From NCBI GenBank assembly GCA_964428185.1, contig CAYRXH010000005.1, positions 10,772 to 74,771 on the forward strand: a stretch of DNA of 64,000 bases. The letters run 5' to 3'. Below the pieces are notes generated by a model. It searched no databases and was not told where the DNA came from. It saw only the letters and a list, made by a program, of their open reading frames with translations. Numbering within the stretch: position 1 is the first letter of the stretch; each line of letters opens with the position of its first letter. The DNA comes from an uncultured Bacteroidales bacterium. Its GTDB lineage: Bacteria > Bacteroidota > Bacteroidia > Bacteroidales > DTU049. Position numbers and translations under genes: made by a program. Positions 16,332 to 49,559 of this stretch are shown piece after piece.

Positions 16332-19300
16332 ATGGAATGTGTATTATATAATGGACAGGTAATATCTCAACAAATATTTGAAGATAAGATAAGGGATGAA
16401 ATATTTAATAGAGCAAAAGCATATAATGCTTCATTATATATTCCTGTTAAAAATGGATTAAATGATACTATATCAAAAATACAAAATGAAACATTAACAG
16501 AAACAGATAGTTATATAAATGAAGATATAAAGAAAAGAGCAGATACAATTGAATTATTGCAATATAAGTATGAGCAGTTATCTGGAACAAATCCTACTAA
16601 TATTACAAAGAGTTTATTAAATTATGTACAACAGAAGTTAAATGTTACTACACAAAAAGCCTTACAGGGGGTATTTAAGCACATTGGAGATAGGAATAAT
16701 GTATTAATTCATTTTCATAATAAAACGCCACAGTATCGAGATAAACAAGTTTTAGGATGGTATTCTGATGGTGATATTAATTATAATGCAAATGAGATTA
16801 CAATAGATACCTATATGCATGAATTTTCTCATTTATGGATGAAGGTATTAAAGTCTAAAGATATAAATACATATGATGAAATTATTCAAAAGGTAGAAAA
16901 TTTTTTAAAATCTGATACTCCTTTTGCTAAACTTGTTAATAAAAGATTAGCATCATATCCTAATGAATCTGTTGCGGAAGAAGCAGCAGCAATAATTGCT
17001 GGATTTGTATCATTGCCTGCTTTTATGAAGTTTGTATCTAATGAATTATCATTAAATGATATGAGTTATTCCGAAATAGTAGAATTATTTGGGGATAATA
17101 TAGCAAATATATATATGCATGTGAGAAATGAATTTGATATGATATCTTCATTGTCTGATATAGATATACCATCATCAAACTTGTATTCAATATTTAATGC
17201 GTTTGTTAATGATATATTTAATGGTAACAATCCTTTTGAAATTTATGGGGAGACATTAGAACAATTAAAAGTACAAGGAGATTTAAATGGGTACATGGAA
17301 AATAATGTTGGTACTGAAAATATTATTACTACTATATCTGACTTTAAGAATGCTTTAAAAAATGATGTTATTAAAAGAAAAGAATTTGAAGAAATGACTT
17401 CTGTTGAGATTGAAGATTTTATCAAGTCTCATTTTAATAAGTTTTCATATAAGAAGATTAATGGACAATGGGTGTGGAGTATGATGGGATATGAAATAGA
17501 AATAGATGTTACTAAAGATGGAATAACACCTGAAAGTATATCTTCTATTAAAAATTTAGTTTTAACAGTTACAGATAAACAATTGGATACATGGATTGAA
17601 GTAGGTAATAAAATTGCAGCAACACAATCAAGCAGAAGGATATCACCTACAAATAATCCTGCTGCTGATGTTATATTAGATACTTTTAAAACAAGATATG
17701 GTAATACAAAGTATAATGTATCAACTGCAAAAAAAATTGCAGATATAATGGGATTTAGTACAGGAGTTCATGATGTATTTAGATTAGAAGATATTGTACA
17801 AAAATATCCTAGTGTTTTTGGTTTTATTGATAAAAATCTTATTAAAGAATTAAATGTTTTAGTAGTATTACATAACGACCCAAGAGGAGATGATCCATCT
17901 GTTCAAATATCATTGTTTTCTCTTGAAAAAATTGTTAATCATATAAGTCCATCAAAGGAAAAAAATATTTTTAATAAATTTGAATCAGTACAAGATAAAG
18001 ATGTTATTAAGCATGGAGCAGCATTAAGAAATAATTCATCATCTATTAATAATTTAATGCTTGGATTTGTTGTTGCTCATTTAGCAAACAATATTAAGAA
18101 TTTACGAATAAGAACAATTGCAACATTAGAGATGACAAGAGAGTTTAGACCTGCTCCAATAGAATTAAATGTATTAATGAAAGCAATTGGATATATAAAA
18201 AATGTTCCTGCATTATTTAATTTGATACAAAATGAAGAAATTAAAAATATTATAGAGAAAGCTAATGATAATAAATATACTTGGCTTAATCAAAGTGCTG
18301 AAGACAAACTTAAAACATTTTACTATAATGGAGTGTATTATTCATCAGATACAGAAGAATTTATAAAAGGGAAATCTACAGAATATTTTTCAATGACCAA
18401 AACTGAAAAGAAAAGTTTTCTTAGAGCAAGAATGAAGTACTTAGAAAATTATTATGGAACATCATCTTCATCTGCACTTATGGCTGACCCTGAATATAAG
18501 TTAATAGCAAATGAATATAAAAGTCTTGACGATATTGGTTATTCAGTTGAGCAGCTGAATCAGGCTGCAGAAAAAGAAATGGGATTTAGACATGAAATAA
18601 TAAAAAAATTAGCATTACCACATAATATAAAATCTGATGTTGTTCAATGGGCAATTAATTCAATACAGACAAATGAAAGATTGGTAATTCATCATTTTAG
18701 GAAATACAGAGATGAATTTCATAAAGTGTTAAAACCTGTATGGAAAAACAGAACAAGTGTATTGCCTAAGATGAGTGATATTGGTTCAAAGACATTTGAA
18801 CATATGTTTATTACAAAAGAACAAGATGGAATAAAATTTAAATTACCATATATATATTTTAATGGTCATGAAATATTTAAAGGCATGACTGAATCACAAA
18901 AAAGAGAAGAACTTAATAGATTGAATTTAACAGAAGATGATTTAGCACTTGGTGATTTTATTATGGAGGCTGTTGAAAATGCTTTGATAGAGGCTGAATT
19001 TATAGACTTACAGAATGCGGCAACAAATGTAGATCAAGCAAATAAAGTTACCAAAGCAGAAGCAAAAGAATCAATATTAAAAAAAGGATGGAGAAAAGAA
19101 ACAGGACAAGTATTTGTAATTTCAAAATCAGCTTCTGAATTAACAGCATCTGGCAAAATTAAAGCAGGTTATGAAAGATTTAAACAACAATCTGTTGATA
19201 TAAATACAATATTTGAGGATCAAGTTTTAGTTGAAGAATTAGGAACGCTAAGAAATACATTTAGTAATCAATTGTCCCATGATATATTATTACAAATGGC

Positions 19301-20873
19301 AGGAATAGAGTATCAAGGTGACAATAAATATAGGTTATTTGACAAAGAAAAAAATGATAGAATGTCAACTAATCTAGAAACAATTACTAATTATGCTGTG
19401 ATGTCATCTATAAGACAATTAATACACTCAAGAGAATCTGAATTTGTATATAAAGCAGCATTAGCTATGATAAATGATATGTGGCAATTTGCAGCAAGTA
19501 ATGATAAAAAATCATATGAAAGATTAAAAGAATATTTAGAAGAATATTGGGAATCAATGGTTAAAGGAAAAAGAATTGATGGAGAACTAACCTTATGGAT
19601 GGGGAAAAAATCTCCTAAAGTTAATATTATGGCAGGAGTTGATATGGCTACACGTGCTATGAGTTTTTCATTAATAGCATATAGACCTAAATTAGTATTA
19701 AAGTCATTTTCATATAATTTATTTAATGCTATTTTATGGGGGGCTGGTAATATATTTGGAAGGGGAGAAGGATTGCCTACATTAACAGACATAATGAAAG
19801 CGTCTGCTATATATGCTAGGGAATATGAAAGAGTTGTACATTGGGCTTCTTTTTATCAAATTGCAAATGCAAGCGCATATGAAACATTAAATTCTGCTGT
19901 GCAAAATGTATCTAAAAAATATGCGCTTAATGATCAAGTTGGATATATCGCATTGCAATTTACTGATGAAGCATGGAGACATATTGTAATGTTATCTTAT
20001 TTAATAAAAGATGGTTCATGGGATGCTCATACATACCATATAGACGAAAATGGAAATGGTGTTATAAAGTATGATGAAAAAAATGATAAAAGATTGTATG
20101 AAGATGGAGTATTAACAGAAAAAGGAAAAGTTTTAAAAGCAGCTATAAAAAATGACCTTGTAGAGCAAGGATTAATGGATGAATCAGATACAGAATTAAA
20201 ATATGGTTATGATATGCAGGAAGCTGTTATGATGAAAACTTTAGCGGATAAATGGGTTATAGGTTCTATGTCAGCTGATGCTGCAGCAAACATAACACAT
20301 GATATTTTAGGAAGACAATTTGCTAAATTCAGAAGATTTGTATTTGATAATTTAGCAAATATGGGTTTAGGAACAGACCCTGGATTGTCTAGAGTATTAT
20401 CAAGAAGGGTTGTTAAACAAGATGAAGAAGGTAATTATTATTCTGTAAAAGAGATGAGAGAGGTTGTGGGTGTTATACAATCTTGGATACAAGCATTTAA
20501 TGTATTTAAAGAACACAGATTTAAAGGATTTTCAGAATTACAAAATTTATCAGAAGCAAGTAAAGCTAATTTATCTCGTTCATTATTATGGATAGTATTA
20601 TTGCTAATTTTAAAAGCATTATTTGGTAAATTTAGAGATGAAGATGAAAGAAGAAGATATTATCTTGACTTACATAGATGGTTAATAGATACAAGTGTAT
20701 GGAACAATGTATCAGATATAGAAAGGTCTCCATTTCCAATGTATGGAGCATTTCAAAGATTTATAGAAACAGGAATTAATGATCCTATTAGATTATTATA
20801 TTATTTACCAGGAGGAGGATTAGTAAAAGATACACAAGAAATTATTAATTCATTTGAAAAAGAAAATAAATAA
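16332..20873 (+). CDS. Large virion/ejection-associated protein (1513 aa) with an N-terminal HExxH zincin motif and a C-terminal hydrophobic segment
   Basis: The ORF starts 4 nt after the giant ORF stop. YMHEFSHLWMK is followed about 50 aa later by VAEEAAAIIAGF. A TM-like segment LLWIVLLLILKALFG lies near the C-terminus. Confidence 0.8.
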   Translation: MECVLYNGQVISQQIFEDKIRDEIFNRAKAYNASLYIPVKNGLNDTISKIQNETLTETDSYINEDIKKRADTIELLQYKYEQLSGTNPTNITKSLLNYVQQKLNVTTQKALQGVFKHIGDRNNVLIHFHNKTPQYRDKQVLGWYSDGDINYNANEITIDTYMHEFSHLWMKVLKSKDINTYDEIIQKVENFLKSDTPFAKLVNKRLASYPNESVAEEAAAIIAGFVSLPAFMKFVSNELSLNDMSYSEIVELFGDNIANIYMHVRNEFDMISSLSDIDIPSSNLYSIFNAFVNDIFNGNNPFEIYGETLEQLKVQGDLNGYMENNVGTENIITTISDFKNALKNDVIKRKEFEEMTSVEIEDFIKSHFNKFSYKKINGQWVWSMMGYEIEIDVTKDGITPESISSIKNLVLTVTDKQLDTWIEVGNKIAATQSSRRISPTNNPAADVILDTFKTRYGNTKYNVSTAKKIADIMGFSTGVHDVFRLEDIVQKYPSVFGFIDKNLIKELNVLVVLHNDPRGDDPSVQISLFSLEKIVNHISPSKEKNIFNKFESVQDKDVIKHGAALRNNSSSINNLMLGFVVAHLANNIKNLRIRTIATLEMTREFRPAPIELNVLMKAIGYIKNVPALFNLIQNEEIKNIIEKANDNKYTWLNQSAEDKLKTFYYNGVYYSSDTEEFIKGKSTEYFSMTKTEKKSFLRARMKYLENYYGTSSSSALMADPEYKLIANEYKSLDDIGYSVEQLNQAAEKEMGFRHEIIKKLALPHNIKSDVVQWAINSIQTNERLVIHHFRKYRDEFHKVLKPVWKNRTSVLPKMSDIGSKTFEHMFITKEQDGIKFKLPYIYFNGHEIFKGMTESQKREELNRLNLTEDDLALGDFIMEAVENALIEAEFIDLQNAATNVDQANKVTKAEAKESILKKGWRKETGQVFVISKSASELTASGKIKAGYERFKQQSVDINTIFEDQVLVEELGTLRNTFSNQLSHDILLQMAGIEYQGDNKYRLFDKEKNDRMSTNLETITNYAVMSSIRQLIHSRESEFVYKAALAMINDMWQFAASNDKKSYERLKEYLEEYWESMVKGKRIDGELTLWMGKKSPKVNIMAGVDMATRAMSFSLIAYRPKLVLKSFSYNLFNAILWGAGNIFGRGEGLPTLTDIMKASAIYAREYERVVHWASFYQIANASAYETLNSAVQNVSKKYALNDQVGYIALQFTDEAWRHIVMLSYLIKDGSWDAHTYHIDENGNGVIKYDEKNDKRLYEDGVLTEKGKVLKAAIKNDLVEQGLMDESDTELKYGYDMQEAVMMKTLADKWVIGSMSADAAANITHDILGRQFAKFRRFVFDNLANMGLGTDPGLSRVLSRRVVKQDEEGNYYSVKEMREVVGVIQSWIQAFNVFKEHRFKGFSELQNLSEASKANLSRSLLWIVLLLILKALFGKFRDEDERRRYYLDLHRWLIDTSVWNNVSDIERSPFPMYGAFQRFIETGINDPIRLLYYLPGGGLVKDTQEIINSFEKENK
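16818..16832 (+). other. HExxH zincin motif (HEFSH) in the 1513-aa protein
   Basis: DTYMHEFSHLWMKVL, aa 163-167. It has the same HExxH...EE-x-A-A arrangement as at nt 7277. Confidence 0.5.
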
Positions 20874-24717: not shown

Positions 24718-25005
24718 TTAATTATATGTTAAAGTTTTTTGTTTTGAATTAAAGAAATTAACTACTCTTAACACATCAACGAAGCAGCACGTCTCTCTTG
24801 TCTGTTCATTATAGACAAGCTCTGAACGTGTTACCTTATAATTCCAACCAAACCCGATTGCGCCGAACACTTCAGTCATCTTCTCAATCCGCCATTGCGG
24901 ATTGATGTCTGTCTTACCTCTCAGCCGTCCGCCATCTATTACACGCTGTGCATCTGAAGGGACTTCTCTTAATTTTTTGTATAATTCTAAATTTTTTGTT
25001 TCCAT
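24718..25005 (-). CDS. Rad52/Sak-like single-strand annealing protein, N-terminal fragment (probably a truncated remnant)
   Basis: LREVPSDAQRVIDGGRLRGKTDINPQWRIEKMTEVFGAIGFGWNY resembles the N-terminal half of Rad52-family phage annealing proteins as I remember them. Composition switches from GC-rich to AT-rich at about 24771, and the ORF stops 17 codons later. Confidence 0.4.
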   Translation of the reverse strand: METKNLELYKKLREVPSDAQRVIDGGRLRGKTDINPQWRIEKMTEVFGAIGFGWNYKVTRSELVYNEQTRETCCFVDVLRVVNFFNSKQKTLTYN

Positions 25006-25020
25006 AATATTTAATTTTTT

Positions 25021-25839
25021 TTAATAAAATAATTCAACAAACTTATTATCTTCGTTTAACACGTATGTTGTGTCTGGTAGTATGCCGTCTTTGCCTACAT
25101 AACCTTTGACAGGCTTATAGGTGTCTTCATTAGCATCATAATAATCCAGCGATAGCACAGACCCGTTACCACCCCTCACACTTGAACCTACTCCGCCCTT
25201 AACTATTGAGTTGTCGCCGCCGACAACACCTGAATAGAGCCCGCCATATAATAATGATTCATTGCCACCAATGACAATAGACCCGTTGCCGCCCATGACA
25301 ACAGACCCGTTGCCGCCCATAACCTTAGACCAGTCAAGTCCTGCTACTATTGTTTCATCACCACCTACAATTAAAGAGAAGTTACCCGCTTTCATATACG
25401 TTAATTTTCCGCCGATAATTACAGCGTAGTCACCACCTATAGCCTTCTCTCCAATGCCTAACCTAACGATTGCACCAATTATACCTATGTGCCCATACAC
25501 GCTTGCAATAAGTTCTGTAGCTGTCAGTCTATCACCCACATACACTACTGTGCCCCCTTTGAACTTTATTAGTCCGTCCAGTGGTATTATGCCTGCTTCT
25601 TCTACTTCAAGAACAACCCATAAGGCTTCATCGCTCCAATCGAACAACGTACCATCACCACATCCCTTTAACGCTCCGTGCAAGCCGTTACCACATTCAG
25701 GGGTAAGCTCCCAGTCGGGAGCTTCTACCCAGCCTGATTGTGGATACTGAAAGCCTTTACGTGAACGATTGTTCTTGTCATTAGTCCGCAACACTAATAC
25801 GTGTCCGTCTTTTACTTTGAATTCTTTTTTTGTTTCCAT
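25021..25839 (-). CDS. Octapeptide-repeat solenoid protein, GC-rich paralog (12 GGxxSxhx units)
   Basis: I prefer the start METKKEFKVKDGHVLVL (25839), which is homologous to the starts of the 37377..38453 and 38528..39277 products. The N-terminal domain, repeats and C-terminal cap are shared. Confidence 0.8.
   Translation of the reverse strand: METKKEFKVKDGHVLVLRTNDKNNRSRKGFQYPQSGWVEAPDWELTPECGNGLHGALKGCGDGTLFDWSDEALWVVLEVEEAGIIPLDGLIKFKGGTVVYVGDRLTATELIASVYGHIGIIGAIVRLGIGEKAIGGDYAVIIGGKLTYMKAGNFSLIVGGDETIVAGLDWSKVMGGNGSVVMGGNGSIVIGGNESLLYGGLYSGVVGGDNSIVKGGVGSSVRGGNGSVLSLDYYDANEDTYKPVKGYVGKDGILPDTTYVLNEDNKFVELFY
25150..25437 (-). repeat. 12 uninterrupted octapeptide units (GGDYAVII ... GGNGSVLS)
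   Basis: Read directly from the translation. Confidence 0.9.
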
Positions 25840-25903: not shown

Positions 25904-26428
25904 CTACCGAGAACATACATCGCATACATGCTCATCACCATCAGTGGCATGCAGCTTGTGAGCGTGCAATCCGCATGTGTCACACACACGTAAGTTAAGG
26001 TTTTCGGTGCAAGATGGACAATAACGTGAACCATCTATTGCATCGTTCATTGTGTACTTGTATATGTATTTTTCGCATCTGTCGCATACTATGCAATACT
26101 TATGCAAGCAATCTTCGCAATAGTCACCGTCACTTGTTTTGAAAAGGGTTGTGTGGAGATATTTACAGCAATTGCACAAGGACAGGCCACGTTTCTCAGC
26201 GCAATCCGCACAAAGGGGGTGTTTGTTGTCTATCCATGCAACATCATCTTCATAAAAGTTTCCTTCGCAGCAATCGCAAGCAACAAGCCCCATCTCATCG
26301 TAACAACTCCAACATGCGATACCTCTTGGGGTATCATCATAGAAATCAATACTTACATTTATGCTTCTTCCGCAGATTTCACATTTGATTTCTTTGTCAT
26401 TAATTTCAATTTCATTTTTTGTTTTCAT
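25904..26428 (-). CDS. Protein made of five tandem zinc-ribbon (CxxC...CxxC) units
   Basis: CEIC..CWSC / CDCC..CADC / CNCC..CEDC / CDRC..CPSC / CDTC..CDVC, each unit about 33 aa. GC-rich. Confidence 0.7.
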   Translation of the reverse strand: MKTKNEIEINDKEIKCEICGRSINVSIDFYDDTPRGIACWSCYDEMGLVACDCCEGNFYEDDVAWIDNKHPLCADCAEKRGLSLCNCCKYLHTTLFKTSDGDYCEDCLHKYCIVCDRCEKYIYKYTMNDAIDGSRYCPSCTENLNLRVCDTCGLHAHKLHATDGDEHVCDVCSR

Positions 26429-35436: not shown

Positions 35437-37206
35437 CTATTCTTCTATTAGGGCTTCTACTTTTAATCCACCTTGTGGAATAACTTTTTCTAATAAAACA
35501 ATAGCTTTATTATTAACAGCTAGTTCATGCAAAATCTTTAATCTTTCATTATCAAAACTTTCACCTCTACCAACCAAAAGAATAGGAAAATGAGAATTAA
35601 GTTTTAAAAGTATCTTGCATGCAATTATCATTTGTTTAGATTGAGATATTTGTGTATCAGATAATGGTAAATAATCATTATCATGAAGAACGTAAATACA
35701 ATCATCTTCTATTTTAATATCTTCTAATATAGGATTATTTTTAATTAGTAATTTTTTCTGTTCTCTTAGTGATTCTATCTTTTCATCTAATTCTTGTTTA
35801 GCAATGGAACATTCATAGTATTTCTTTTGTGCTTCTTCATAATCTTGATACTTATAGAGTGTTGAATTTATTAATTTTTCCATTTCCAATGCTTGAAGAT
35901 ATTTTTCTTCTAAGATATCATCAGGAACAAAGTTAAGTTCTGATAGTTCTTTAGTTATTTCATCTTTCTTAATGTTATATCTTCTTTCAATATCAGTTTT
36001 TTCTTCAATTAAGTTATTATATTCATTTTTTAAGTCATTGATAGTTTTATTAATAATATCAATTCTTTGATTGATTTTATTAATAATATCATCATATGAT
36101 GTTTTTATAAGTTCAAGATTATCATTAAGAGATTGCATTTTTATAGAAATAGATTTCTTTTCTTCATATTCTGTTTTTGTCTTTTTTATTTCGTCTTCTA
36201 TTTCTAAAATATCTTTTGATATTAGTTCTTTTTCAGTGTCTGTTATATTTATTTCTTTTAATCTTTTAGAATAGTGTGCTATATCAGTGTATATGGGTGT
36301 TCGTAAATCATAATTAATTTTTTCTTTTTCTGTTAGGTCAAGATATAGATTACGAACATTTTCATCTAGACATTTAAGGAATATTTCGGATTGTTTTTTT
36401 CTGCCTTCTGCTGTTTTTCCCCATGATACAAATTCTTCAGCGGTAAAGTCTTGATATGAGAATATGTCTCTTATAGAAGTTATAGAATGTGTTCTTATAC
36501 CTTTATTATTTACCATTGTAAATTTGACTTTACCATCTTTATGAGCTTCCATTGTCACTGAATATGTATTTCCGTCAGGGGTATCAATAATACCTGTTAT
36601 CAAAGACTCTTGTTCGCCTATGGATACTGGTATTTTTGTATCATTCTTTGCTTTTATTAAACTTTTGAAGGCTTCTAATATAGACGATTTTCCTACTTCG
36701 TTTTGTCCAGATATTATATATACATTACTATTATTCAATTCTACATTTAAGTTCTTTATTAACTTATAGTTCTTAATGTGAAATTTTATATTGAATGTAT
36801 AATCATTATCTGTGGTTGTTTCATTTTCATTAATCAATGATGATGGTATTTCTTCTTTTGAAGGATTATTATTAGAAGAAATACTTTCTTCTTCAGGTGA
36901 GGAAGAAAGTATTTCAGGTGTATCAGGGCTATTGATTACAAGAACATCATTTTCATCAATATTAACCAGTTCAAAATAGGTTTCATCTAATTCTGTATCT
37001 GAGAAATTATTATGTACTATACTGAAATATTTGTTATATTCATCCAGTACATCAATAATATGAATATAAGAATCATATTTTTTACTGTATAGAATCATAC
37101 CTTTTTTAAGAGGCAAGAAAGTTTTAAAATAAAATTCTTCTTTTAATGCTAAGTGATTATTGTCTGTTTCTTTTATTTTTGAGATTTTGACAATTATTGT
37201 TTTCAT
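35437..37206 (-). CDS. SMC/Rad50/SbcC-like coiled-coil ATPase
   Basis: Walker A IISGQNEVGKSS, a long coiled-coil middle region, and C-terminal ILLVGRGESFDNERL (Walker B / D-loop-like). Confidence 0.55.
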   Translation of the reverse strand: MKTIIVKISKIKETDNNHLALKEEFYFKTFLPLKKGMILYSKKYDSYIHIIDVLDEYNKYFSIVHNNFSDTELDETYFELVNIDENDVLVINSPDTPEILSSSPEEESISSNNNPSKEEIPSSLINENETTTDNDYTFNIKFHIKNYKLIKNLNVELNNSNVYIISGQNEVGKSSILEAFKSLIKAKNDTKIPVSIGEQESLITGIIDTPDGNTYSVTMEAHKDGKVKFTMVNNKGIRTHSITSIRDIFSYQDFTAEEFVSWGKTAEGRKKQSEIFLKCLDENVRNLYLDLTEKEKINYDLRTPIYTDIAHYSKRLKEINITDTEKELISKDILEIEDEIKKTKTEYEEKKSISIKMQSLNDNLELIKTSYDDIINKINQRIDIINKTINDLKNEYNNLIEEKTDIERRYNIKKDEITKELSELNFVPDDILEEKYLQALEMEKLINSTLYKYQDYEEAQKKYYECSIAKQELDEKIESLREQKKLLIKNNPILEDIKIEDDCIYVLHDNDYLPLSDTQISQSKQMIIACKILLKLNSHFPILLVGRGESFDNERLKILHELAVNNKAIVLLEKVIPQGGLKVEALIEE

Positions 37207-37357
37207 GGTTATGATGTTTTTGATTAATTAATTCATTTAATTGAACAAGTTCTTCAATACAATCTGAACATATTGTATATTCTCCTGGGTAATATGCATG
37301 ATTGCATCTTAAACAAACTATTTTCTTTTTGTTTTTTGGATTATGTAAGTTTTTCAT
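37157..37357 (-). CDS. Small zinc-ribbon protein (66 aa)
   Basis: MKNLHNPKNKKKIVCLRCNHAYYPGEYTICSDCIEEL (CxxC-x11-CxxC). It starts at an internal ATG of the listed ORF 37157..37567 and overlaps the downstream gene start by 50 nt. Confidence 0.35.
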   Translation of the reverse strand: MKNLHNPKNKKKIVCLRCNHAYYPGEYTICSDCIEELVQLNELINQKHHNHENNNCQNLKNKRNRQ

Positions 37358-37376
37358 ATTTTCTTTTACTATAATT

Positions 37377-38453
37377 TTATTTTTTGTTTTTGTGGTTATT
37401 TTGTTTAATGGTAAAATTATTATTATTATCAAGAATATATTCAGTATTTGGCAATATATTGTTTTCACCCACATAAACTGTGACAGTCCTAATAACATTA
37501 TACGAATCTCTGTATTCAAGTGATAACATTGAATTATCGCCGCCTTTAACACTCGAACCGATACCACCTTTTAGTTTGGAATTATTGCCACCTGATATGA
37601 TAGAATGGTCACCACTGTTAATAATAGTATCATTTCCACCACTTACTATTGAGCCATAATCTGTTGTAATAAAAGAATAATCACCACCTTGAACTTCTGC
37701 CCAGTTTCTACAAGTAATAACAGATCTATTACCTCCTGTTGCTGTGGATTGCATGCCTCCTGAGATTACAGATTCATTACCACCTGTTATTATTGTGCCA
37801 GAACCACCTGTAATGAATGAATTATTACCTCCTTCAATAAAGGATTTATTACCTCCTGTAATTGTTGAATAGTTTCCACCTTTAACTTTTGACCAGTGAC
37901 CTCCTACGATTACAGAATCATTACCACCTGTAACAGTAGAGCCATTCCCTCCCCTAATAATAGACATGTTGCCGCCAGTTACTTGAGAAAGGTCGCCTCC
38001 TATGACGTTAGAAAAATCACCTCCTTTGATTATAGAATAGTCTCCTCCAACAGCAACTTCTCCGTTACCTACAACAATTGTAGCTCCTATTATACCTATA
38101 TTACCATAGACATTTGCTATAATGTTTGTAGCTGTTTCTCTATCTCCTACATATATTACATTGCCACCTTTAAATTTAACTTTACCATTAAGGTCTATGA
38201 TTCCTTTTTCTTTTACTTCTAATACCATCCATAATGCATCATCGTTTGTATAAAATAAAGTACCATCACCTCGTCCTTTTAAAGCACCGTGCAAACCTTT
38301 GCCAAAAATAGGTGAAGGATTCCAATCAGGTGCTTCTACCCAACCTGACATAGGATATTGAAAATGTTCAAAATTGGAACAATTATTTTTATCATTTGTT
38401 CTTAATACTAATACATGACCTTTTTTTACTTTAAACTCTTTTTCTCTTTTCAT
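37377..38453 (-). CDS. Octapeptide-repeat solenoid protein (22 GGxxSxhx units)
   Basis: Its N-terminal domain is homologous to the 25021..25839 and 38528..39277 products. It has 22 uninterrupted octads (aa 136-311) and the conserved C-terminal cap. Confidence 0.85.
   Translation of the reverse strand: MKREKEFKVKKGHVLVLRTNDKNNCSNFEHFQYPMSGWVEAPDWNPSPIFGKGLHGALKGRGDGTLFYTNDDALWMVLEVKEKGIIDLNGKVKFKGGNVIYVGDRETATNIIANVYGNIGIIGATIVVGNGEVAVGGDYSIIKGGDFSNVIGGDLSQVTGGNMSIIRGGNGSTVTGGNDSVIVGGHWSKVKGGNYSTITGGNKSFIEGGNNSFITGGSGTIITGGNESVISGGMQSTATGGNRSVITCRNWAEVQGGDYSFITTDYGSIVSGGNDTIINSGDHSIISGGNNSKLKGGIGSSVKGGDNSMLSLEYRDSYNVIRTVTVYVGENNILPNTEYILDNNNNFTIKQNNHKNKK
37521..38048 (-). repeat. 22 uninterrupted octapeptide units (GGDYSIIK ... 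GGDNSMLS)
   Basis: Counted in the translation. There are no indels between units. Confidence 0.9.
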
Positions 38454-38527
38454 ATTGCTTTTTTTAAAGTTAAACCCAAATCCATCATTATTGATTCTAA
38501 TGACAGATTTGGGTTAAAAATGAATTA

Positions 38528-39277
38528 TCAACAATTTAATGAAAAATTATTGTTTATATCTAATGTGTAATATACATTTGGTCTTAGTCCATTTTCTCCA
38601 ACCTTTGCAACAAAAGATTTACCAACAGAATTTTTTAGTATTATGGTAGTATTATTTCCCCCAGATGCTATTGTTCCATAGTCTCCTATTATTATTGAGT
38701 CTTCTCCAACTTTTACTTCACAATATTTATCTGCATATACAACTGAACTGTTACCTCCTGTTATTGTTGAGTTATGACCTCCCATTATAGTTGTATCATC
38801 TCCTCCTTTTAATATAGATTCACCACCTCCTTTTATTAAACAGTTATTACCACCTGTTAAATTTGACATATAACCTCCTGTTATTATTTGAATATCTCCT
38901 GTTGTTGCTTCCAATCCTATTACTCCTATGTTACCATATACATTGGATATAATAGTTGCTGCTGTTCGCATGTTACCAGAATATAATATAGTACCCATTC
39001 TGAAACGTACAAAACCATCATATTCTATTATATCTTGTTCAGATACTTCTAATACTGACCATATTGAATCTTCACTATAATTTAATAAATGTCCATTACC
39101 ACAACCTTTTAACATACCTTCTAAACCACCAATACGTGTTTGTGAATAAAAATTTTCGTCTTCTATAATTCCTAATCTCGGAAATTGAATACCATGACGA
39201 GAACAATTATTTTTGTCATTTGAACATAATACTAATACATGACCTTCTTTTAACTGAATTTTATTTATTGTTTCCAT
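38528..39277 (-). CDS. Octapeptide-repeat solenoid protein (10 units)
   Basis: METINKIQLKEGHVLVLCSNDKNNCS..., octads at aa 134-213, C-terminal cap VGENGLRPNVYYTLDINNNF. Confidence 0.8.
   Translation of the reverse strand: METINKIQLKEGHVLVLCSNDKNNCSRHGIQFPRLGIIEDENFYSQTRIGGLEGMLKGCGNGHLLNYSEDSIWSVLEVSEQDIIEYDGFVRFRMGTILYSGNMRTAATIISNVYGNIGVIGLEATTGDIQIITGGYMSNLTGGNNCLIKGGGESILKGGDDTTIMGGHNSTITGGNSSVVYADKYCEVKVGEDSIIIGDYGTIASGGNNTTIILKNSVGKSFVAKVGENGLRPNVYYTLDINNNFSLNC
38639..38878 (-). repeat. 10 octapeptide units (GGYMSNLT ... GGNNTTII)
   Basis: Read from the translation. Confidence 0.85.
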
Positions 39278-39315
39278 TTCTTTTTTTCTCCTATTATTTT
39301 GTTAAATTATTATTT

Positions 39316-39735
39316 TTATTTTTTATTAAATTCTAAAAACATTTGTGGCTCAAATAAAAATCTTGATGAACCATTTAATAACTTAGAATTACATAGCTGT
39401 GAGATAAATACATAATTTGATATGTCTTCTCTTAGAGATTTATAAGTTATTATGTACCTATTACGATATATAGAGATAAATCCATGACGCCTCTTACCAT
39501 TGCATAAATCCTTCTCTAATATTATATCATAATATTTCTTCTCCCTTATAACACCATTAAATATATTTATTATACTATCCTCTGTCTTGTACTTGATACG
39601 ATAGTTGAGTAATGTACAGTAACGCTTTAGCAATTCTAATGTGATATTATTACAATATGTACGATCTAAGCGCACAAAATTATTGGAGACCCTTTGTTCT
39701 CCAATAAAATTATCTACAAATTCTGATGTTTTCAT
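39316..39735 (-). CDS. Hypothetical protein (139 aa)
   Basis: ORF only. Confidence 0.5.
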   Translation of the reverse strand: MKTSEFVDNFIGEQRVSNNFVRLDRTYCNNITLELLKRYCTLLNYRIKYKTEDSIINIFNGVIREKKYYDIILEKDLCNGKRRHGFISIYRNRYIITYKSLREDISNYVFISQLCNSKLLNGSSRFLFEPQMFLEFNKK

Positions 39736-39916
39736 AACTCTTATATTTTATGTTATATTATTAATCGGATTTCTATTCTTGATTTTGTTATAAGTAATTT
39801 TATTTAATTTGTTAATGGGTTTTTGTTATTCATATATAATTTCCAAGAAAATTATATAATAATGCAATATTAAGTATTATTATATATATGAAAAACAAAA
39901 TTGGGAAGGAAAGGAT

Positions 39917-39974
39917 TCCCCTGTCAACGAGGGCAAGTGCATAAAAATGTAAATGCTTGATAATCAACAGGGGA
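39917..39974. repeat. Imperfect extended hairpin (8-bp outer stem TCCCCTGT/ACAGGGGA plus an inner GCAAG.GCAT/ATGCTTG pairing)
   Basis: Read directly. It is relatively GC-rich within an AT-rich spacer between leftward genes. Confidence 0.6.
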
Positions 39975-40070
39975 AAATATGATGAGGATAAATGTTAAAA
40001 TCGACAAAAAGTGATAACATTGTATCTCAAAATAGGGGGTTTAGAAAAATTAGTAGAAAGAAATAGTTAA

Positions 40071-47469: not shown

Positions 47470-47796
47470 ATGGAATATAAGAAAAATTGGATAGAAGAAG
47501 GTATGGAGGTTGCCCACAAAGATAATCCTCAACAAAAGTTGATTGTTAATAGAATTATAAGACAAAATAAACCAATAAAAGTTCAAGAAAATAATGATTG
47601 GGTTACAGTTACAAAATCATTTGTTATAGCTGTTGAGGTGCATTGGTGGGAGAAAGATTTAGATACAGGTCAAAACAAATTACAAACTGCAAAGTTCCAT
47701 ACAAGATTGCTAATCCCTTGGCAAGTAGCTATGGAGTCTTTTACTAAAGGGGTTCATGTAATCGAAAATTTTATCAAAAGAATAAATAAAATATGA
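47470..47796 (+). CDS. Hypothetical protein (108 aa)
   Basis: The ORF track starts at a TTG (47440) that lies inside the promoter -7 element. The ATG at 47470 (MEYKKNW) is more plausible. Confidence 0.55.
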   Translation: MEYKKNWIEEGMEVAHKDNPQQKLIVNRIIRQNKPIKVQENNDWVTVTKSFVIAVEVHWWEKDLDTGQNKLQTAKFHTRLLIPWQVAMESFTKGVHVIENFIKRINKI

Positions 47797-49559
47797 AAAT
47801 ATCTAAAAAAAACAAAAATAGTTTAAGAAGTGGTGGTAGAGAATATTTCTTTTATCAAAAGAAGTTTCTTGGAATAAATGATCAATTAATGGAGTTAGAT
47901 GGTGCAACAGGTGTAAAACCTGTAGATGGTAAATTTATTGATGCTTCTTATATTGCTAATTTAAATATTATTTTGGAAGGCGAAAATTATAGATATATTG
48001 ATGCAGACAAGACTCCTCTTGAAAATGGAAATAGATTAGTAACAACTTACAATGCTGCGAAAACAGCAACCCCAAATGGTCTTCCTTTGTCAATTGACAA
48101 TCCAATAAATATTTTAGTATCTCCTGGTAAATATCAATTTGATAATACGTTTAGATTAGATACTTCTTATATCAACATTAAATGCTTAACTAATGAAGCT
48201 GAAATTTATTTAGTAGGCTCATCAGGTATTTACATAGAAGATGATATAGTTACTCATTTAAAAGGTGTGGATGCAAGAGGATTAACTATGGCTAATGGAC
48301 AAGAAATTAATTTATTGGTAATGAATCCTAATACAATTATTGAAAATTGTTATGCAAACAGTAATTCTTTTGGATATAGCACTACAGATGCAATAATTTT
48401 AAGCGGAACTTTTAAAAATGTTACTTCAGGAGACAATTCATTTGGTCGTTCAACATCAGGAAGTGTTTATTTGCATGGAAAATATGAAGATATAACTTCT
48501 GGTGATTATTCGTTAGGTTGTAGCGATAGTGGATATGTGGACATAGCTGGGGTAATTAGGAATTTAAACATAGGTTCTTTATGTGTGGGTATTACTGATA
48601 ATGGTCTTGTACGTTTACATTCTTTTATTGAAAATGTAATATGTAGATTTAAATGTTTTGGTGTATCAATGAATGGAAATGTAGAGGTTCATTGTCATGC
48701 AAAAAATGTAATGGTTATTTTAGGTGGAGGATGCTTTGGTAGTTCTATTGGAGGAAATGTGACTTTGCAAAATGTGGTATTGGAAAATATAATTTTAATA
48801 AATGTAAAAGGTGGCGATAGTTCATTTGGATATAGTTCTTCAGGTACTGTAGTTATTAATAATTCAAAGTTTAAAAATTGCAAAACATCAAAACTTAATT
48901 TTTGTAATAGTTTTGGATATTCTGGCTCTAATACAGTAACAATAGAAAATACAATAGTAGAAAATTGTTGGGGAGGAAGTTCATGTTTTGGGGTTGGTGG
49001 ATTAGATGTGTTAATATCTTATACAACAGTCATAGGAACTGAATTTGTATCATGTTGTATATCATCAAATGGAAATGTTTTAAATACTGCAAAATTTAGA
49101 GATTGTAAAATTTTAGAGTTTAGTCCATCAAATAACTTTAATGGAGAACTAGTAAACTGTATATTAGAAGCAGGTTCTTTATCAAGTGGATATATGTATG
49201 GAAGAATTATTAATTGTGTCTTTGAACTGGGTACAGGAATTTTCCCCGATCCTGTTGGAAAATGTCAAGGTGTTACTATTGTTAATCCAGGAACAGGATA
49301 TAATACTGGCGAAATATTAACAGTTGTTGGTGGAACAGGTGTGCCTGCAACATTACATGTAGATATGGCAGTTGGTGGTGCGATATTACAAATATCTATT
49401 ATAAGTGGAGGAGCATATACTGAAAAACCTATTAACCCAGTTCTTACAACAGGATCATCAATTAATGATGCTTTATTTGATTTAAGTAATTGGGAGGAAG
49501 GATGTGTGGTACAATGTGTAAATGGAGACAACACCATTAGTACTAAATATGTAGTCTAA
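47793..49559 (+). CDS. Beta-helix fibre / tailspike-like protein
   Basis: About 22-24-aa periodic repeats with recurring SFGYS/SFGRS/CFGVS/CFGSS motifs across aa 190-400. N-terminal ILVSPGKYQF is a pectate-lyase-like start. C-terminal VTIVNPGTGYNTGE...GGAYTEKP. Confidence 0.5.
   Translation: MKISKKNKNSLRSGGREYFFYQKKFLGINDQLMELDGATGVKPVDGKFIDASYIANLNIILEGENYRYIDADKTPLENGNRLVTTYNAAKTATPNGLPLSIDNPINILVSPGKYQFDNTFRLDTSYINIKCLTNEAEIYLVGSSGIYIEDDIVTHLKGVDARGLTMANGQEINLLVMNPNTIIENCYANSNSFGYSTTDAIILSGTFKNVTSGDNSFGRSTSGSVYLHGKYEDITSGDYSLGCSDSGYVDIAGVIRNLNIGSLCVGITDNGLVRLHSFIENVICRFKCFGVSMNGNVEVHCHAKNVMVILGGGCFGSSIGGNVTLQNVVLENIILINVKGGDSSFGYSSSGTVVINNSKFKNCKTSKLNFCNSFGYSGSNTVTIENTIVENCWGGSSCFGVGGLDVLISYTTVIGTEFVSCCISSNGNVLNTAKFRDCKILEFSPSNNFNGELVNCILEAGSLSSGYMYGRIINCVFELGTGIFPDPVGKCQGVTIVNPGTGYNTGEILTVVGGTGVPATLHVDMAVGGAILQISIISGGAYTEKPINPVLTTGSSINDALFDLSNWEEGCVVQCVNGDNTISTKYVV

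What the first reader, a model, noticed from the sequence alone, without database searches (positions are those of the whole stretch)
37157..39277. Tandem paralogs of a solenoid family built from uninterrupted octapeptide GGxxSxhx repeats of variable copy number
Seen: the adjacent leftward genes (358 aa and 249 aa) and a third copy at 25021-25839 share three parts. First, a ~130-aa N-terminal domain (K.GHVLVL..NDKNN.S...(F/I)Q(Y/F)P...GL(H/E)G.LKG.G.G...W.VLEV...VYG(N/H)IG(I/V)IG). Second, a run of exact 8-residue units with a GG doublet and a Ser at position 5, in 22, 10 and 12 units with no indel between units. Third, a conserved C-terminal cap (VG(E/K)(N/D)(N/G)(I/L).P(N/D)..Y.L....F). An 8-residue period does not match the solenoid periods I know (pentapeptide, hexapeptide LbH, RTX nonapeptide). 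The genes sit in the early/replication block rather than among virion genes. A small CxxC...CxxC protein (37157-37357) lies directly downstream of the 22-unit copy. Inference: this is an expanded, length-variable repeat family of unknown function. Candidate roles are host takeover, mimicry or anti-defence.
Basis: partly seen in the sequence, partly recalled or inferred. Interest (0 to 1): 0.75.

Follow-up and report, generated by a model that had tools for sequence, protein, structure and literature searches.

The report
Phage mini ice-nucleation-protein homologues
A divergent crAss-like phage carries three short genes that match bacterial ice-nucleation proteins from end to end, so the 'unknown' eight-residue repeat is the known INP solenoid; the proteins are too short and lack the right surface to nucleate ice, and their role is still unknown.

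Summary
Three leftward genes (37377-38453, 38528-39277, 25021-25839) share a ~122-aa N-domain, an indel-free octad array G-G-(N/D)-x-S-x-(I/V)-x of 23, 11 and 13 units (22, 10 and 12 without the degenerate first unit), and a conserved C-terminal cap.

The claim that the period matches no known solenoid does not hold. All three align end to end with published InaK-NC, the N-domain, a few coils and the C-cap of a Pseudomonas syringae ice-nucleation protein (BLASTP 7e-28, 2e-22, 2e-20; hhalign 99.9%, E 2.6e-36). Two octads correspond to one 16-residue INP coil (AGYGSTQT+AGEDSSLT). AlphaFold2 gives pLDDT 95 and 93, with one short strand per octad.

The family is large and mostly phage-borne. It corresponds to Pfam DUF7666 and PHROG 18079, with 2,202 N-domain cluster representatives and 313 IMG/VR loci. 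It includes Bordetella phage Bbp36, whose repeat array is 'variable region 2', and a Burkholderia phage gene already annotated 'ice nucleation protein'.

Ice nucleation is very unlikely: the arrays make about 6-12 coils against the 13-15 needed, and there are almost no TxT motifs.

My best functional guess, which is inferred and not shown, is a non-essential accessory protein that acts alone and is targeted to the envelope. The downstream CxxC ORF is not a conserved partner.

The parts
37377..38453 (-). Mini-INP copy A (358 aa). N-domain aa 1-123 (nt 38085-38453). Octads aa 124-311 (nt 37521-38084; 23 in-register G-G-x-x-S-x-h-x units from aa 128). INP-type C-cap aa 312-358 (nt 37377-37520).
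   Evidence: ORF. Octads. PHROG 18079 E 2.8e-32. DUF7666 E 1.2e-4, below the gathering score. BLASTP to InaK-NC 2e-22 covering the N-domain and repeats, plus a separate HSP at 1e-8 covering repeats and cap. AF2 pLDDT 93.2, pTM 0.82, 24 regular 3-residue strands at octad positions 6-8.
38528..39277 (-). Mini-INP copy B (249 aa), the most degenerate copy. N-domain aa 1-121 (nt 38915-39277; it has lost the C..GLH motif). 11 octads, aa ~122-213 (nt 38639-38914). Cap aa 214-249 (nt 38528-38638).
   Evidence: ORF. Octads. PHROG 18079 E 1.5e-15 over aa 10-245. BLASTP to InaK-NC 2e-20, end to end. GC3 0.104, i.e. fully adapted to the phage's composition.
25021..25839 (-). Mini-INP copy C (272 aa). N-domain aa 1-122 (nt 25474-25839; it keeps the C49/H54 motif CGNGLHG). 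13 octads, aa 123-230 (nt 25150-25473). Cap aa 231-272 (nt 25021-25149).
   Evidence: ORF. DUF7666 E 3.7e-6, 27.8 bits, above the gathering score of 27. PHROG 18079 E 9e-34. BLASTP to InaK-NC 7e-28 over 298 columns. AF2 pLDDT 95.0, pTM 0.86. GC 0.441, GC3 0.385, against 0.282 for the window.
37157..37357 (-). Neighbour, not part of the unit: a 66-aa zinc-ribbon-like ORF (C15xxC18...C30xxC33) 19 nt downstream of copy A, overlapping the start of the SbcC-like gene by 50 nt.
   Evidence: Only sub-threshold family hits. A comparable small CxxC ORF lies downstream on the same strand in only 5 of 68 related loci.

Best explanation
**What it is (shown).** The three genes encode miniature but complete homologues of bacterial ice-nucleation proteins (INPs; InaZ/InaK/PbINP).
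- Each has the ~120-aa globular N-domain, catalogued in Pfam as DUF7666, that also heads INPs. Here it is fused directly to the solenoid, with no linker.
- Each then has an INP-type beta-solenoid.
- Each ends with the INP-type C-terminal cap.

**Solenoid anatomy.**
- Shown by the AF2 secondary structure: every octad G-G-(N/D)-x-S-x-(I/V)-x gives one short strand at positions 6-8.
- Inferred by homology to published INP models: positions 1-4 form the turn, Ser5 and the aliphatic residue 7 point inward, and two octads make one 16-residue coil. That gives about 11.5, 5.5 and 6.5 coils.

**Family.** They are new members of a large, mostly phage and prophage family (PHROG 18079) that includes Bordetella phage Bbp36, whose octad array is the classical 'variable region 2'.

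**How it works (inferred, about 0.3).**
- It is a non-essential accessory protein that acts alone.
- It is made early in infection, or in temperate relatives from the immunity region.
- Its N-domain and C-domain take it to the cell envelope, as the engineered INP-NC surface-display anchor does.
- There it presents a rigid rod. Rod length is set by octad number. The binding surface is set by the outward residues at positions 3, 4, 6 and 8.
- It would act in conflict at the cell surface, for example receptor masking or superinfection exclusion.
- It is not an ice nucleator.
For: **Identity**
- BLASTP of C, A and B against InaK-NC as printed in PMC2690846 gives 7e-28, 2e-22 and 2e-20, spanning N-domain, repeats and cap.
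- hhalign of the family alignment against InaK-NC gives 99.9%, E 2.6e-36, columns 12-281 against residues 4-297.
- The INP coil consensus AGYGSTQTAGEDSSLT is two octads. In the INP AlphaFold model S5 and S13 form inward serine ladders, which matches the conserved Ser5 here.
- The three PbINP cap residues whose joint mutation abolished activity (F1204, D1208, Y1230) line up with a hydrophobic residue, a Asp conserved in at least 70% of sequences, and the invariant Tyr of the family cap. This is my reading of the alignments.
- AF2 models are confident: pLDDT 95.0 and 93.2, with one strand per octad at positions 6-8.
- One relative, P0254, carries both PF24703 and PF00818.
- Burkholderia phage Mica gp52 is annotated 'ice nucleation protein' from a BLASTP hit to SwissProt Q47879.

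**Family size and setting**
- 2,202 N-domain representatives at E<=1e-3; 313 loci in IMG/VR.
- Of 259 N-domain hits, 195 have at least 3 octads.
- Bbp36 of phage BIP-1 is the N-domain, 20 octads of AG(ES/NY/YR)GTAT and the cap.

**Function leads**
- bbp36 is reported non-essential, and VR2 copy number differs between isolates.
- The only recurrent neighbour is a cI/LexA-like repressor upstream on the same strand, in 19 of 70 loci. No partner gene is conserved.
- The P. aeruginosa copy lies between the repressor and the integrase of a prophage.
- InaK-NC takes a passenger protein to the E. coli outer membrane, where it is accessible to proteinase K.
- One relative, P0220, replaces the solenoid with a DUF1566 domain, which I recall is the Lcl adhesin C-terminal domain.
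Against: **Function**
- No experiment bears on localisation or function for any member.
- None of the proteins has a signal peptide or transmembrane segment by inspection. How INPs themselves reach the outer membrane is unresolved.
- INP lacking its N-domain stays cytoplasmic yet remains active. That shows the solenoid itself works in the cytoplasm, so an intracellular role for the phage proteins is equally possible.
- The host here is presumably a Bacteroidota bacterium, where the INP export route has never been tested.
- The window phage looks virulent, so the argument from the immunity-region context of temperate phages transfers only loosely.

**Identity**
- Pfam does not link DUF7666 to the INP N-domain: InaK-NC hits only PF00818.
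- The window proteins do not hit PF00818 at E<=1.
- Copy B has lost the C..GLH motif.
- I could not inspect model coordinates. 'Two octads per coil' therefore rests on homology to published INP models, not on a measurement.
Confidence: 0.55

Rival explanations
1. Cytoplasmic self-assembling solenoid. Like INPs, which form dimers and long fibres through their C-terminal coils and cap, the phage proteins would polymerise inside the infected cell into filaments or a scaffold. This would be bactofilin-like in function though not in ancestry, and could serve replication or compartment organisation.
For: - INP fibres form inside recombinant E. coli, and the C-terminal coils plus cap drive multimerisation.
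- INP without its N-domain is cytoplasmic and still active.
- The window genes sit among replication genes.
- In copy A, position 6 of the odd-numbered octads is mostly hydrophobic (V, I, F, M). If two octads make a coil, this would form an exposed hydrophobic stripe, i.e. a possible interface (my reading).
Against: - The arrays lack the arginine-rich position 12 that defines INP R-coils (compared with the units).
- bbp36 is non-essential, so any scaffold role is dispensable.
- In temperate relatives the gene lies by the repressor, not in the replication module.
Confidence: 0.2
2. Counter-defence or protection from abortive infection, mediated by the N-domain. The DUF7666/INP N-domain would be a remote relative of the conserved C-terminal domain of T4 RIIB, the 'protector from prophage-induced early lysis', and the protein would work at the membrane against prophage-encoded exclusion systems.
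For: - Foldseek against BFVD returns several RIIB proteins at probability 1.00, covering about 100-124 columns at rmsd 3.4-4.5 A.
- The one region aligned by hhalign places the family's 'P.SG.VE.PDW...C.NGLH' on RIIB's 'PG..VEMPR...TCS.GLH', followed by a hydrophobic strand.
- The genomic position is early in infection or within the immunity region.
Against: - hhalign is not significant: 0.7% against the single T4 sequence and 5.1% (E 0.0076) profile against profile.
- The Foldseek E-values are only 0.01-0.1.
- Pfam finds no DUF7666 in T4 RIIB.
- PADLOC gives no hit, although it models defence systems rather than anti-defence.
- The RIIB mechanism is itself unknown.
Confidence: 0.12
3. One reading: a new beta-solenoid class with an unprecedented 8-residue period and no characterised relatives.
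For: - There is no significant PDB fold match; the best E-value is 0.73.
- Pfam calls the N-domain a DUF.
Against: - The proteins are homologous end to end with INPs.
- The lack of PDB matches is expected, because no experimental INP structure had been reported (abstract of PMC3196904, listed).
- An 8-residue period is also known in the T4 gp5 beta-helix (Pfam PF06715, weak hit).
Confidence: 0.02
4. A T4 gp5/VgrG-type triple-stranded beta-helix built from VxGxxxxx octads, i.e. a virion needle or fibre component.
For: Weak hits to Gp5_C PF06715 (E 0.021, below the gathering score) and to PHROG 430, baseplate hub (E 6e-4 and 4e-3).
Against: - These scores are 20-30 orders of magnitude weaker than the INP and PHROG 18079 matches.
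- AF2 folds the monomer confidently on its own.
- The genes lie on the replication arm, opposite the structural genes.
- bbp36 is non-essential.
Confidence: 0.03
5. A genuine ice-binding or ice-nucleating protein, or a DNA mimic acting as an anti-restriction decoy.
For: - The proteins are homologous to INPs.
- Copy B has a weak hit to the grass antifreeze beta-roll PF21300 (E 0.0019).
- Relatives in proteobacterial phages carry T-x-T in 603 of 975 octads.
Against: - The window copies have TxT in only 3/23, 1/11 and 0/13 octads, and make about 11.5, 5.5 and 6.5 coils. PbINP needs at least 13-15 coils.
- The phage's nearest relatives are Crassvirales, mostly recovered from gut samples.
- The outward residues are near neutral (K+R against D+E: 9/11, 4/7, 6/6), unlike strongly acidic DNA mimics.
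Confidence: 0.03

Closest known systems
Bacterial ice-nucleation proteins (InaZ/InaK of Pseudomonas syringae, PbINP of P. borealis; Pfam PF00818 repeat)
   Same: - The same three-part order with homologous parts: a ~110-120-aa globular N-domain, a solenoid of (A/G)-G-x-x-S-x-h-x half-coils with an inward Ser ladder, and a ~41-aa C-terminal cap with the same key hydrophobic/Asp/Tyr positions.
- There is no canonical signal peptide, by inspection.
   Different: - The phage proteins are 249-358 aa against ~1,200 aa.
- There is no flexible linker, so the N-domain abuts the solenoid.
- They have about 6-12 coils, against 50-80 tandem copies reported for INPs generally.
- The octads are all of one kind rather than alternating in a 16/48-residue super-repeat.
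- There are no TxT/SxT/Tyr water-organising arrays and no Arg-rich R-coils.
- They are phage-encoded, and ice nucleation is not expected. PF00818 is not hit.
Bbp36 of Bordetella phages BPP-1/BMP-1/BIP-1, the gene that holds 'variable region 2' (VR2)
   Same: - It is a full member of the same family: DUF7666-type N-domain, octad array and the same cap.
- Its function is unknown and it is non-structural.
- The copy number of octads varies between isolates.
   Different: - VR2 is a young, near-identical 24-bp DNA repeat (19.9 copies, 91% matches) in which only the dipeptide at positions 3-4 varies (ES, NY, YR).
- The window arrays are diverged at the DNA level and also vary at positions 6 and 8.
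- BPP-1 is a temperate phage of a beta-proteobacterium. The window is a crAss-like phage with three copies.
Pfam DUF7666 (PF24703) / PHROG 18079 proteins, e.g. Burkholderia phage Mica gp52 (annotated 'ice nucleation protein') and Pseudomonas phage vB_PaeS-D14O (annotated FliK)
   Same: - Same family by HMM.
- Same position in the early or regulatory region.
   Different: - Those members come mostly from high-GC proteobacterial temperate phages (median locus GC 0.60) and carry the TxT-rich octads AGxxGTAT or GGxxSTLT.
- The window copies are at the low-GC extreme and have mixed faces.
Engineered INP-NC surface-display anchor
   Same: It is an artificial construct of N-domain, a few coils and C-cap. 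Apart from its linker, that is the natural architecture of the phage proteins. It reaches the E. coli outer membrane and surface.
   Different: It keeps the INP linker and was tested only with INP sequences in Proteobacteria. Nothing shows that the phage proteins behave the same way.
T4 gp5 C-terminal beta-helix (PF06715) and other short-period beta-solenoids (grass antifreeze beta-roll PF21300, bactofilin)
   Same: An 8-residue (gp5) or 7-8-residue (grass AFP) strand-turn period rich in Gly, with weak HMM cross-hits.
   Different: gp5 is an intertwined trimer in the virion. No bactofilin hit appears at all. The scores are far below the INP match.

Membership tests
Bacterial ice-nucleation protein (INP) superfamily | Conserved ~110-aa globular N-terminal domain | tested here: met
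   BLASTP of C, A and B against InaK-NC aligns residues ~14-113 with INP residues 6-105 within HSPs of 7e-28, 2e-22 and 2e-20. hhalign gives 99.9%. In alignment A4, which includes InaK, five columns are invariant.
Bacterial ice-nucleation protein (INP) superfamily | Tandem 16-residue coils AGYGSTxTAGxxSxLT (Pfam PF00818) | tested here: inconclusive
   The octad skeleton (A/G)-G-x-x-S-x-h-x, equal to half a coil, is present without indels, and the repeats align with INP R-coils. However, PF00818 is not hit at E<=1 by any window copy, and no 16-residue alternation is visible. A relative, P0254, does carry PF00818.
Bacterial ice-nucleation protein (INP) superfamily | ~41-residue C-terminal cap with conserved Phe/Asp/Tyr (PbINP F1204, D1208, Y1230) | tested here: met
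   The cap aligns. The equivalent positions hold a hydrophobic residue, a Asp conserved in at least 70% of sequences, and the invariant Tyr (Y259 of copy C).
Bacterial ice-nucleation protein (INP) superfamily | Continuous water-organising arrays (TxT, SxT, Tyr ladder) and at least 13-15 coils | tested here: not met
   TxT occurs in 3/23, 1/11 and 0/13 octads, and the arrays make about 11.5, 5.5 and 6.5 coils.
Bacterial ice-nucleation protein (INP) superfamily | Ice-nucleation activity; outer-membrane location | not testable with these tools
   Needs droplet-freezing assays and cell fractionation.
DUF7666 (PF24703) / PHROG 18079 | HMM match to the family model | tested here: met
   PHROG 18079: E 9e-34 (C), 2.8e-32 (A) and 1.5e-15 (B), near full length for C and B. 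PF24703: C scores 27.8 bits against a gathering score of 27, A scores 22.9 bits (below), and B is not listed.
Bbp36 / VR2-type phage proteins | N-domain + octad array + cap in one ORF | tested here: met
   tblastn of copy C hits bbp36 of BPP-1, BMP-1 and BIP-1. The BIP-1 ORF of 357 aa shows the same three parts.
Bbp36 / VR2-type phage proteins | Near-identical 24-bp DNA repeats (19 bp constant + 5 bp variable) with copy number changing between isolates | tested here: not met
   In the window, TRF finds only 2-6 units at 64-91% identity, against 19.9 copies at 91% in BIP-1. No second isolate of the window phage was available.
T4 gp5 / VgrG triple-stranded beta-helix (PF06715) | HMM match above threshold; virion baseplate context | tested here: not met
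   PF06715 gives E 0.021 and 15.3 bits against a gathering score of 20.4, for copy C only. The genes are on the replication arm.
Bactofilin | Bactofilin (DUF583) domain | tested here: not met
   No such hit at E<=1 in Pfam, and none in NCBIfam.
T4 RIIB C-terminal domain (for the N-domain only) | Significant profile or fold similarity | tested here: inconclusive
   Foldseek gives probability 1.00 but E 0.01-0.1. hhalign gives 5.1%, E 0.0076 over 52 columns around the shared C.GLH motif.

The most novel reading that the evidence does not exclude
Ice-nucleation proteins may be a recent, greatly expanded offshoot of an old and widespread phage and prophage family of mini-INPs: the DUF7666 N-domain, a uniform octad solenoid and a cap.
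- In this reading the 8-residue unit is the ancestral state.
- The linker, the 16/48-residue super-repeat and the water-organising faces are later additions.
- The original job of the scaffold has nothing to do with ice. It would be an envelope-directed accessory function in phage-host or phage-phage conflict.
- The N-domain might be shared with T4 RIIB.

The window would then show this family in a crAss-like phage, in three copies of different ages.
Probability: 0.4. Interest if true: 0.65.

Novelty: new variant of a known kind. Interest (0 to 1): 0.5.

Why it matters
- **INP origin.** The INP literature I could read treats INPs as confined to a few gammaproteobacterial genera plus fungal transfers. 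It also states that no structural homologues of the N- and C-domains could be found. Here those domains turn out to define a family with more than 2,000 cluster representatives, mostly in phages. That gives a concrete hypothesis for where INPs came from.
- **Experimental models.** These are small, tractable natural proteins of 250-360 aa, confidently modelled, for studying the INP fold, its cap and its unexplained export.
- **A named phage family.** A frequent 'hypothetical protein' of phages gets a name, and the 20-year-old VR2 puzzle of Bordetella phages is linked to a defined fold. The hypervariable dipeptide would sit in the turn between successive strands, by homology to the INP models.
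- **Annotation.** The repeat arrays break assemblies and produce many 'partial' or mis-annotated entries, such as FliK.
- **Limit.** The function in the crAss-like phage remains unknown, so the immediate biological payoff is moderate.

Tried and rejected
- blastn (distant mode) of 36000-40000 against GenBank phages gave no match. tblastn of the 588-aa ORF at 47793-49559 also gave none.
- NCBIfam gave nothing useful. PADLOC gave no hit for any family member.
- Foldseek against the PDB found nothing with E<0.7.
- I considered the T4 gp5-type beta-helix and bactofilin and rejected both.
- I considered a DNA mimic and rejected it on charge.
- I tested whether the CxxC ORF is a conserved partner and rejected it. 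More generally, neighbour clustering found no conserved partner gene.
- The RIIB link was not significant by hhalign, so I keep it only as a lead.
With the narrow subgroup it found only one Saccharibacteria MAG contig, so I have no host inference from cellular genomes.
- An exact look-up of copy C's contig found nothing. Cluster look-up gave no names.
- The original VR2 paper (Liu et al. 2004) is not held, so VR2 facts are cited second-hand from PMC2884959.
- Literature searches for DUF7666 and for 'INP-like' phage proteins found nothing relevant.

Full report
**1. Observation**

- Cutting the sequences after the conserved YG(N/H)IG(I/V)IG motif gives uninterrupted 8-residue units.
- In the G-G register there are 23, 11 and 13 units.
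- The consensus is G1 G2 (N/D)3 x4 S5 x6 (I/V)7 x8. Positions 1, 2, 5 and 7 have low entropy; positions 4, 6 and 8 have high entropy.
- All 20 (A), 7 of 9 (B) and all 11 (C) GG doublets fall in one period-8 register. No shuffle out of 20,000 reached this.
- At the DNA level the units are diverged: TRF finds only 2-6 units at 64-91%.
- The neighbourhood is the replication arm: SbcC-like, DnaB-like, processivity-factor-like and exonuclease-like genes. TerL, portal and MCP are on the other arm.
- TerL is about 25% identical to Crassvirales terminases, so 'divergent crAss-like phage' is fair.

**2. What it is**

First-pass family scans placed the proteins in uncharacterised families.
- Pfam gave only DUF7666 for the N-domain, with C above threshold and A below.
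- PHROGs gave family 18079, of unknown function, for all three.
- There were weak cross-hits to Gp5_C, a grass antifreeze beta-roll and PHROG 430.

Homologues from a first database search carried octads such as GGYGSTVT and AGDYGTAT, and a cap reading 'IKYWDG.RYR....YVGEDGI.PNV.Y.L'. This reminded me of ice-nucleation proteins.

To test that with real data I found a paper that prints the InaK-NC construct: the INP N-domain, linker, a few coils and the C-domain (PMC2690846). The comparisons were clear.
- BLASTP of C, A and B against InaK-NC gives 7e-28, 2e-22 and 2e-20. The alignments run from the N-domain through the repeats into the cap.
- The family profile against InaK-NC gives hhalign 99.9%, E 2.6e-36, over 258 columns.

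Published INP features match the octad.
- The INP coil consensus is AGYGSTQTAGEDSSLT, which is two octads.
- In the AlphaFold INP model each 16-residue repeat is one coil, with S5 and S13 forming inward serine ladders and the x of TxT pointing inward. These correspond to Ser5 and aliphatic residue 7 here.
- The three cap residues whose joint mutation destroys PbINP activity (F1204, D1208, Y1230) correspond to a hydrophobic residue, a conserved Asp and the invariant Tyr of the family cap.

AlphaFold2 with the family alignment is confident: C has pLDDT 95.0 and pTM 0.86; A has 93.2 and 0.82. The models show one short strand per octad at positions 6-8, a mixed alpha/beta N-domain directly abutting the solenoid, and a beta-hairpin cap.

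Foldseek finds nothing in the PDB. That fits the absence of any solved INP structure. It does find DUF7666 and other phage proteins in BFVD.

So the proteins are miniature, complete INP homologues. The '8-residue period' is the INP half-coil.

**3. The wider family**

- A profile of the N-domain finds 1,148 clusters at 90% identity through the word index. It finds 2,202 representatives at 50% identity by exhaustive HMMER, of which 1,613 score at or below 1e-10.
- Of 259 retrieved hits, 195 have at least 3 in-register octads and 136 match the cap motif used.
- A few have other C-terminal modules, for example P0220 with DUF1566.
- IMG/VR holds 313 confirmed loci. Three contigs there carry two copies.
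- Full-length relatives are 190-397 aa with 4-26 octads. There are two octad flavours, AGxxGTAT and GGxxSTLT, and almost all variation is in positions 3-4.
- Locus GC ranges from 0.32 to 0.72 with a median of 0.60. The window, at 0.28, is an outlier.

In GenBank phages the family appears in three settings.
- Burkholderia phage Mica, where it is annotated 'ice nucleation protein' from a SwissProt hit.
- Pseudomonas phage D14O, where it is mis-annotated as FliK.
- Bordetella phages BPP-1, BMP-1 and BIP-1, as gene bbp36.

The BIP-1 ORF consists of the N-domain, 20 octads of AG(ES/NY/YR)GTAT and the cap. Its array is exactly the annotated 'variable region 2'. According to PMC2884959, citing Liu et al., VR2 is a 24-bp unit (19 bp plus one of three 5-bp spacers) repeated 9-20 times depending on the isolate. 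It is not linked to tropism, and bbp36 is non-essential.

In Pseudomonas aeruginosa the gene sits in a prophage between the S24 repressor and the integrase. Its array has been replaced by an assembly gap. That explains the many 'partial' database entries.

**4. How it probably works**

Shown:
- The fold class and the three-part architecture.
- There is no conserved partner gene. Neighbour clustering of 70 loci finds only a cI/LexA-like repressor upstream on the same strand, in 19 loci.
- A CxxC ORF lies downstream on the same strand in only 5 of 68 loci.

Not ice nucleation:
- About 11.5, 5.5 and 6.5 coils, against the 13-15 needed.
- TxT in only 3/23, 1/11 and 0/13 octads.

Not a DNA mimic:
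- The outward residues are near neutral.

Inferred:
- InaK-NC is essentially this architecture plus a linker, and it carries passengers to the E. coli outer membrane and surface. The most economical mechanism is therefore an envelope-directed rigid rod.
- Rod length would be set by octad number, and the exposed ladders at positions 3, 4, 6 and 8 would form a binding surface.
- Three things fit a dispensable conflict or accessory function such as receptor masking or superinfection exclusion. The gene sits in the immunity region of temperate phages. The positions 3-4 dipeptide is hypervariable. Bbp36 is dispensable.
- I put this at about 0.3. The identity claim I put at about 0.95.

Rivals:
- A cytoplasmic self-assembling scaffold. 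INPs form fibres via their C-terminal coils and cap, and N-less INP is cytoplasmic.
- An RIIB-like membrane-protection role. Foldseek gives RIIB hits at probability 1.00 but E 0.01-0.1, and there is a shared 'P.G.VE.P...C..GLH' motif. hhalign, however, gives only 5%.

**5. The three copies**

- In the N-domain, copy C is 72% identical to A and 48% to B.
- Copy C has GC 0.441 and GC3 0.385. A has 0.340 and 0.184. B has 0.297 and 0.104. The window average is 0.282.
- Copy C therefore looks like a later arrival, or a gene less adapted to the phage's composition, than the tandem pair. B is the oldest and most degenerate copy: it has lost the C..GLH motif and three of its octads lack a Gly doublet.

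**6. Novelty**

- I found no paper describing short phage INP homologues.
- Forbes et al. 2022 explicitly report finding no structural homologues of the INP N- and C-domains.
- A 2026 survey lists InaZ orthologues only in Pantoea, Pseudomonas, Xanthomonas and Mortierellaceae.
- On the other hand, annotation pipelines have already labelled at least one phage member (Mica) and a Caulobacter gene whose sequence I did not check as 'ice nucleation protein'. The family is also catalogued as DUF7666 and PHROG 18079.

I therefore call it a new variant of a known kind. It is a real and interesting link with a plausible evolutionary story, but not a new fold class, and its function is still open.

Noticed in passing
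window 25474-25839, 38085-38453, 38915-39277 (N-domains); L005 (T4 rIIB); alignment A7: The DUF7666/INP N-domain may be remotely related to the conserved C-terminal domain of T4 RIIB. Foldseek gives RIIB hits at probability 1.00 (E 0.01-0.1), and the motif order 'PG..VE.P....C..GLH' followed by a hydrophobic strand is shared. Profile-profile hhalign gives only 5% (E 0.0076).
   Followed up: partly
window 25021-25839: Copy C is a compositional outlier: GC 0.44 and GC3 0.385 in a phage of GC 0.28, while the tandem copies have GC3 of 0.18 and 0.10. This suggests a more recent horizontal acquisition rather than an in-genome duplication.
   Followed up: partly
window 25904-26428 (-): A 174-aa Cys-rich ORF directly upstream of copy C on the same strand carries about a dozen CxxC/CxC pairs, like multiple zinc ribbons. 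It has no PHROG hit and only a sub-threshold PADLOC Cas10 hit (E 0.038). With the 66-aa zinc-ribbon ORF after copy A, both mini-INP loci have a zinc-ribbon neighbour, but this is not conserved in other phages.
   Followed up: partly
window 125-16327 (+) and 16332-20873 (+): There are giant ORFs of 5,400 aa and 1,513 aa. The 1,513-aa ORF has no PHROG hit and the 5,400-aa ORF was not scanned. Very large virion-associated proteins are typical of crAss-like phages; I did not analyse these.
   Followed up: no
L004 7450-8270 (P. aeruginosa GCA_950101375.1 prophage); proteins P0020-P0070: The octad arrays break or collapse assemblies. The P. aeruginosa gene has a run of N where the array should be, and dozens of NCBI entries are 'hypothetical protein, partial' fragments holding only the last octads and the cap. 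Family size and copy numbers in databases are therefore underestimates.
   Followed up: partly
P0220, P0305: The N-domain also occurs with other C-terminal modules: DUF1566 (P0220) and a leucine-rich-repeat-like tail (P0305). It therefore behaves as a separable module.
   Followed up: no
L003 4001-4660 (Pseudomonas phage vB_PaeS-D14O): This family member is annotated 'phage flagellar hook-length control protein fliK'. That is almost certainly a mis-annotation driven by the repeats.
   Followed up: no
literature: PMC10688885: In Caulobacter, the operon CCNA_02815-02816, annotated as 'ice nucleation protein' plus a hypothetical protein, is among the genes whose transcripts fall after phiCbK infection. 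It is listed among those with a phage TgrL ChIP peak in the promoter. It may be an expression handle on a cellular member of this family; I did not check the sequence.
   Followed up: no
window 24718-25005 (-): This 95-aa ORF matches only the first ~62 positions of a 242-position exonuclease PHROG (7838). It may be a truncated or split gene next to copy C.
   Followed up: no
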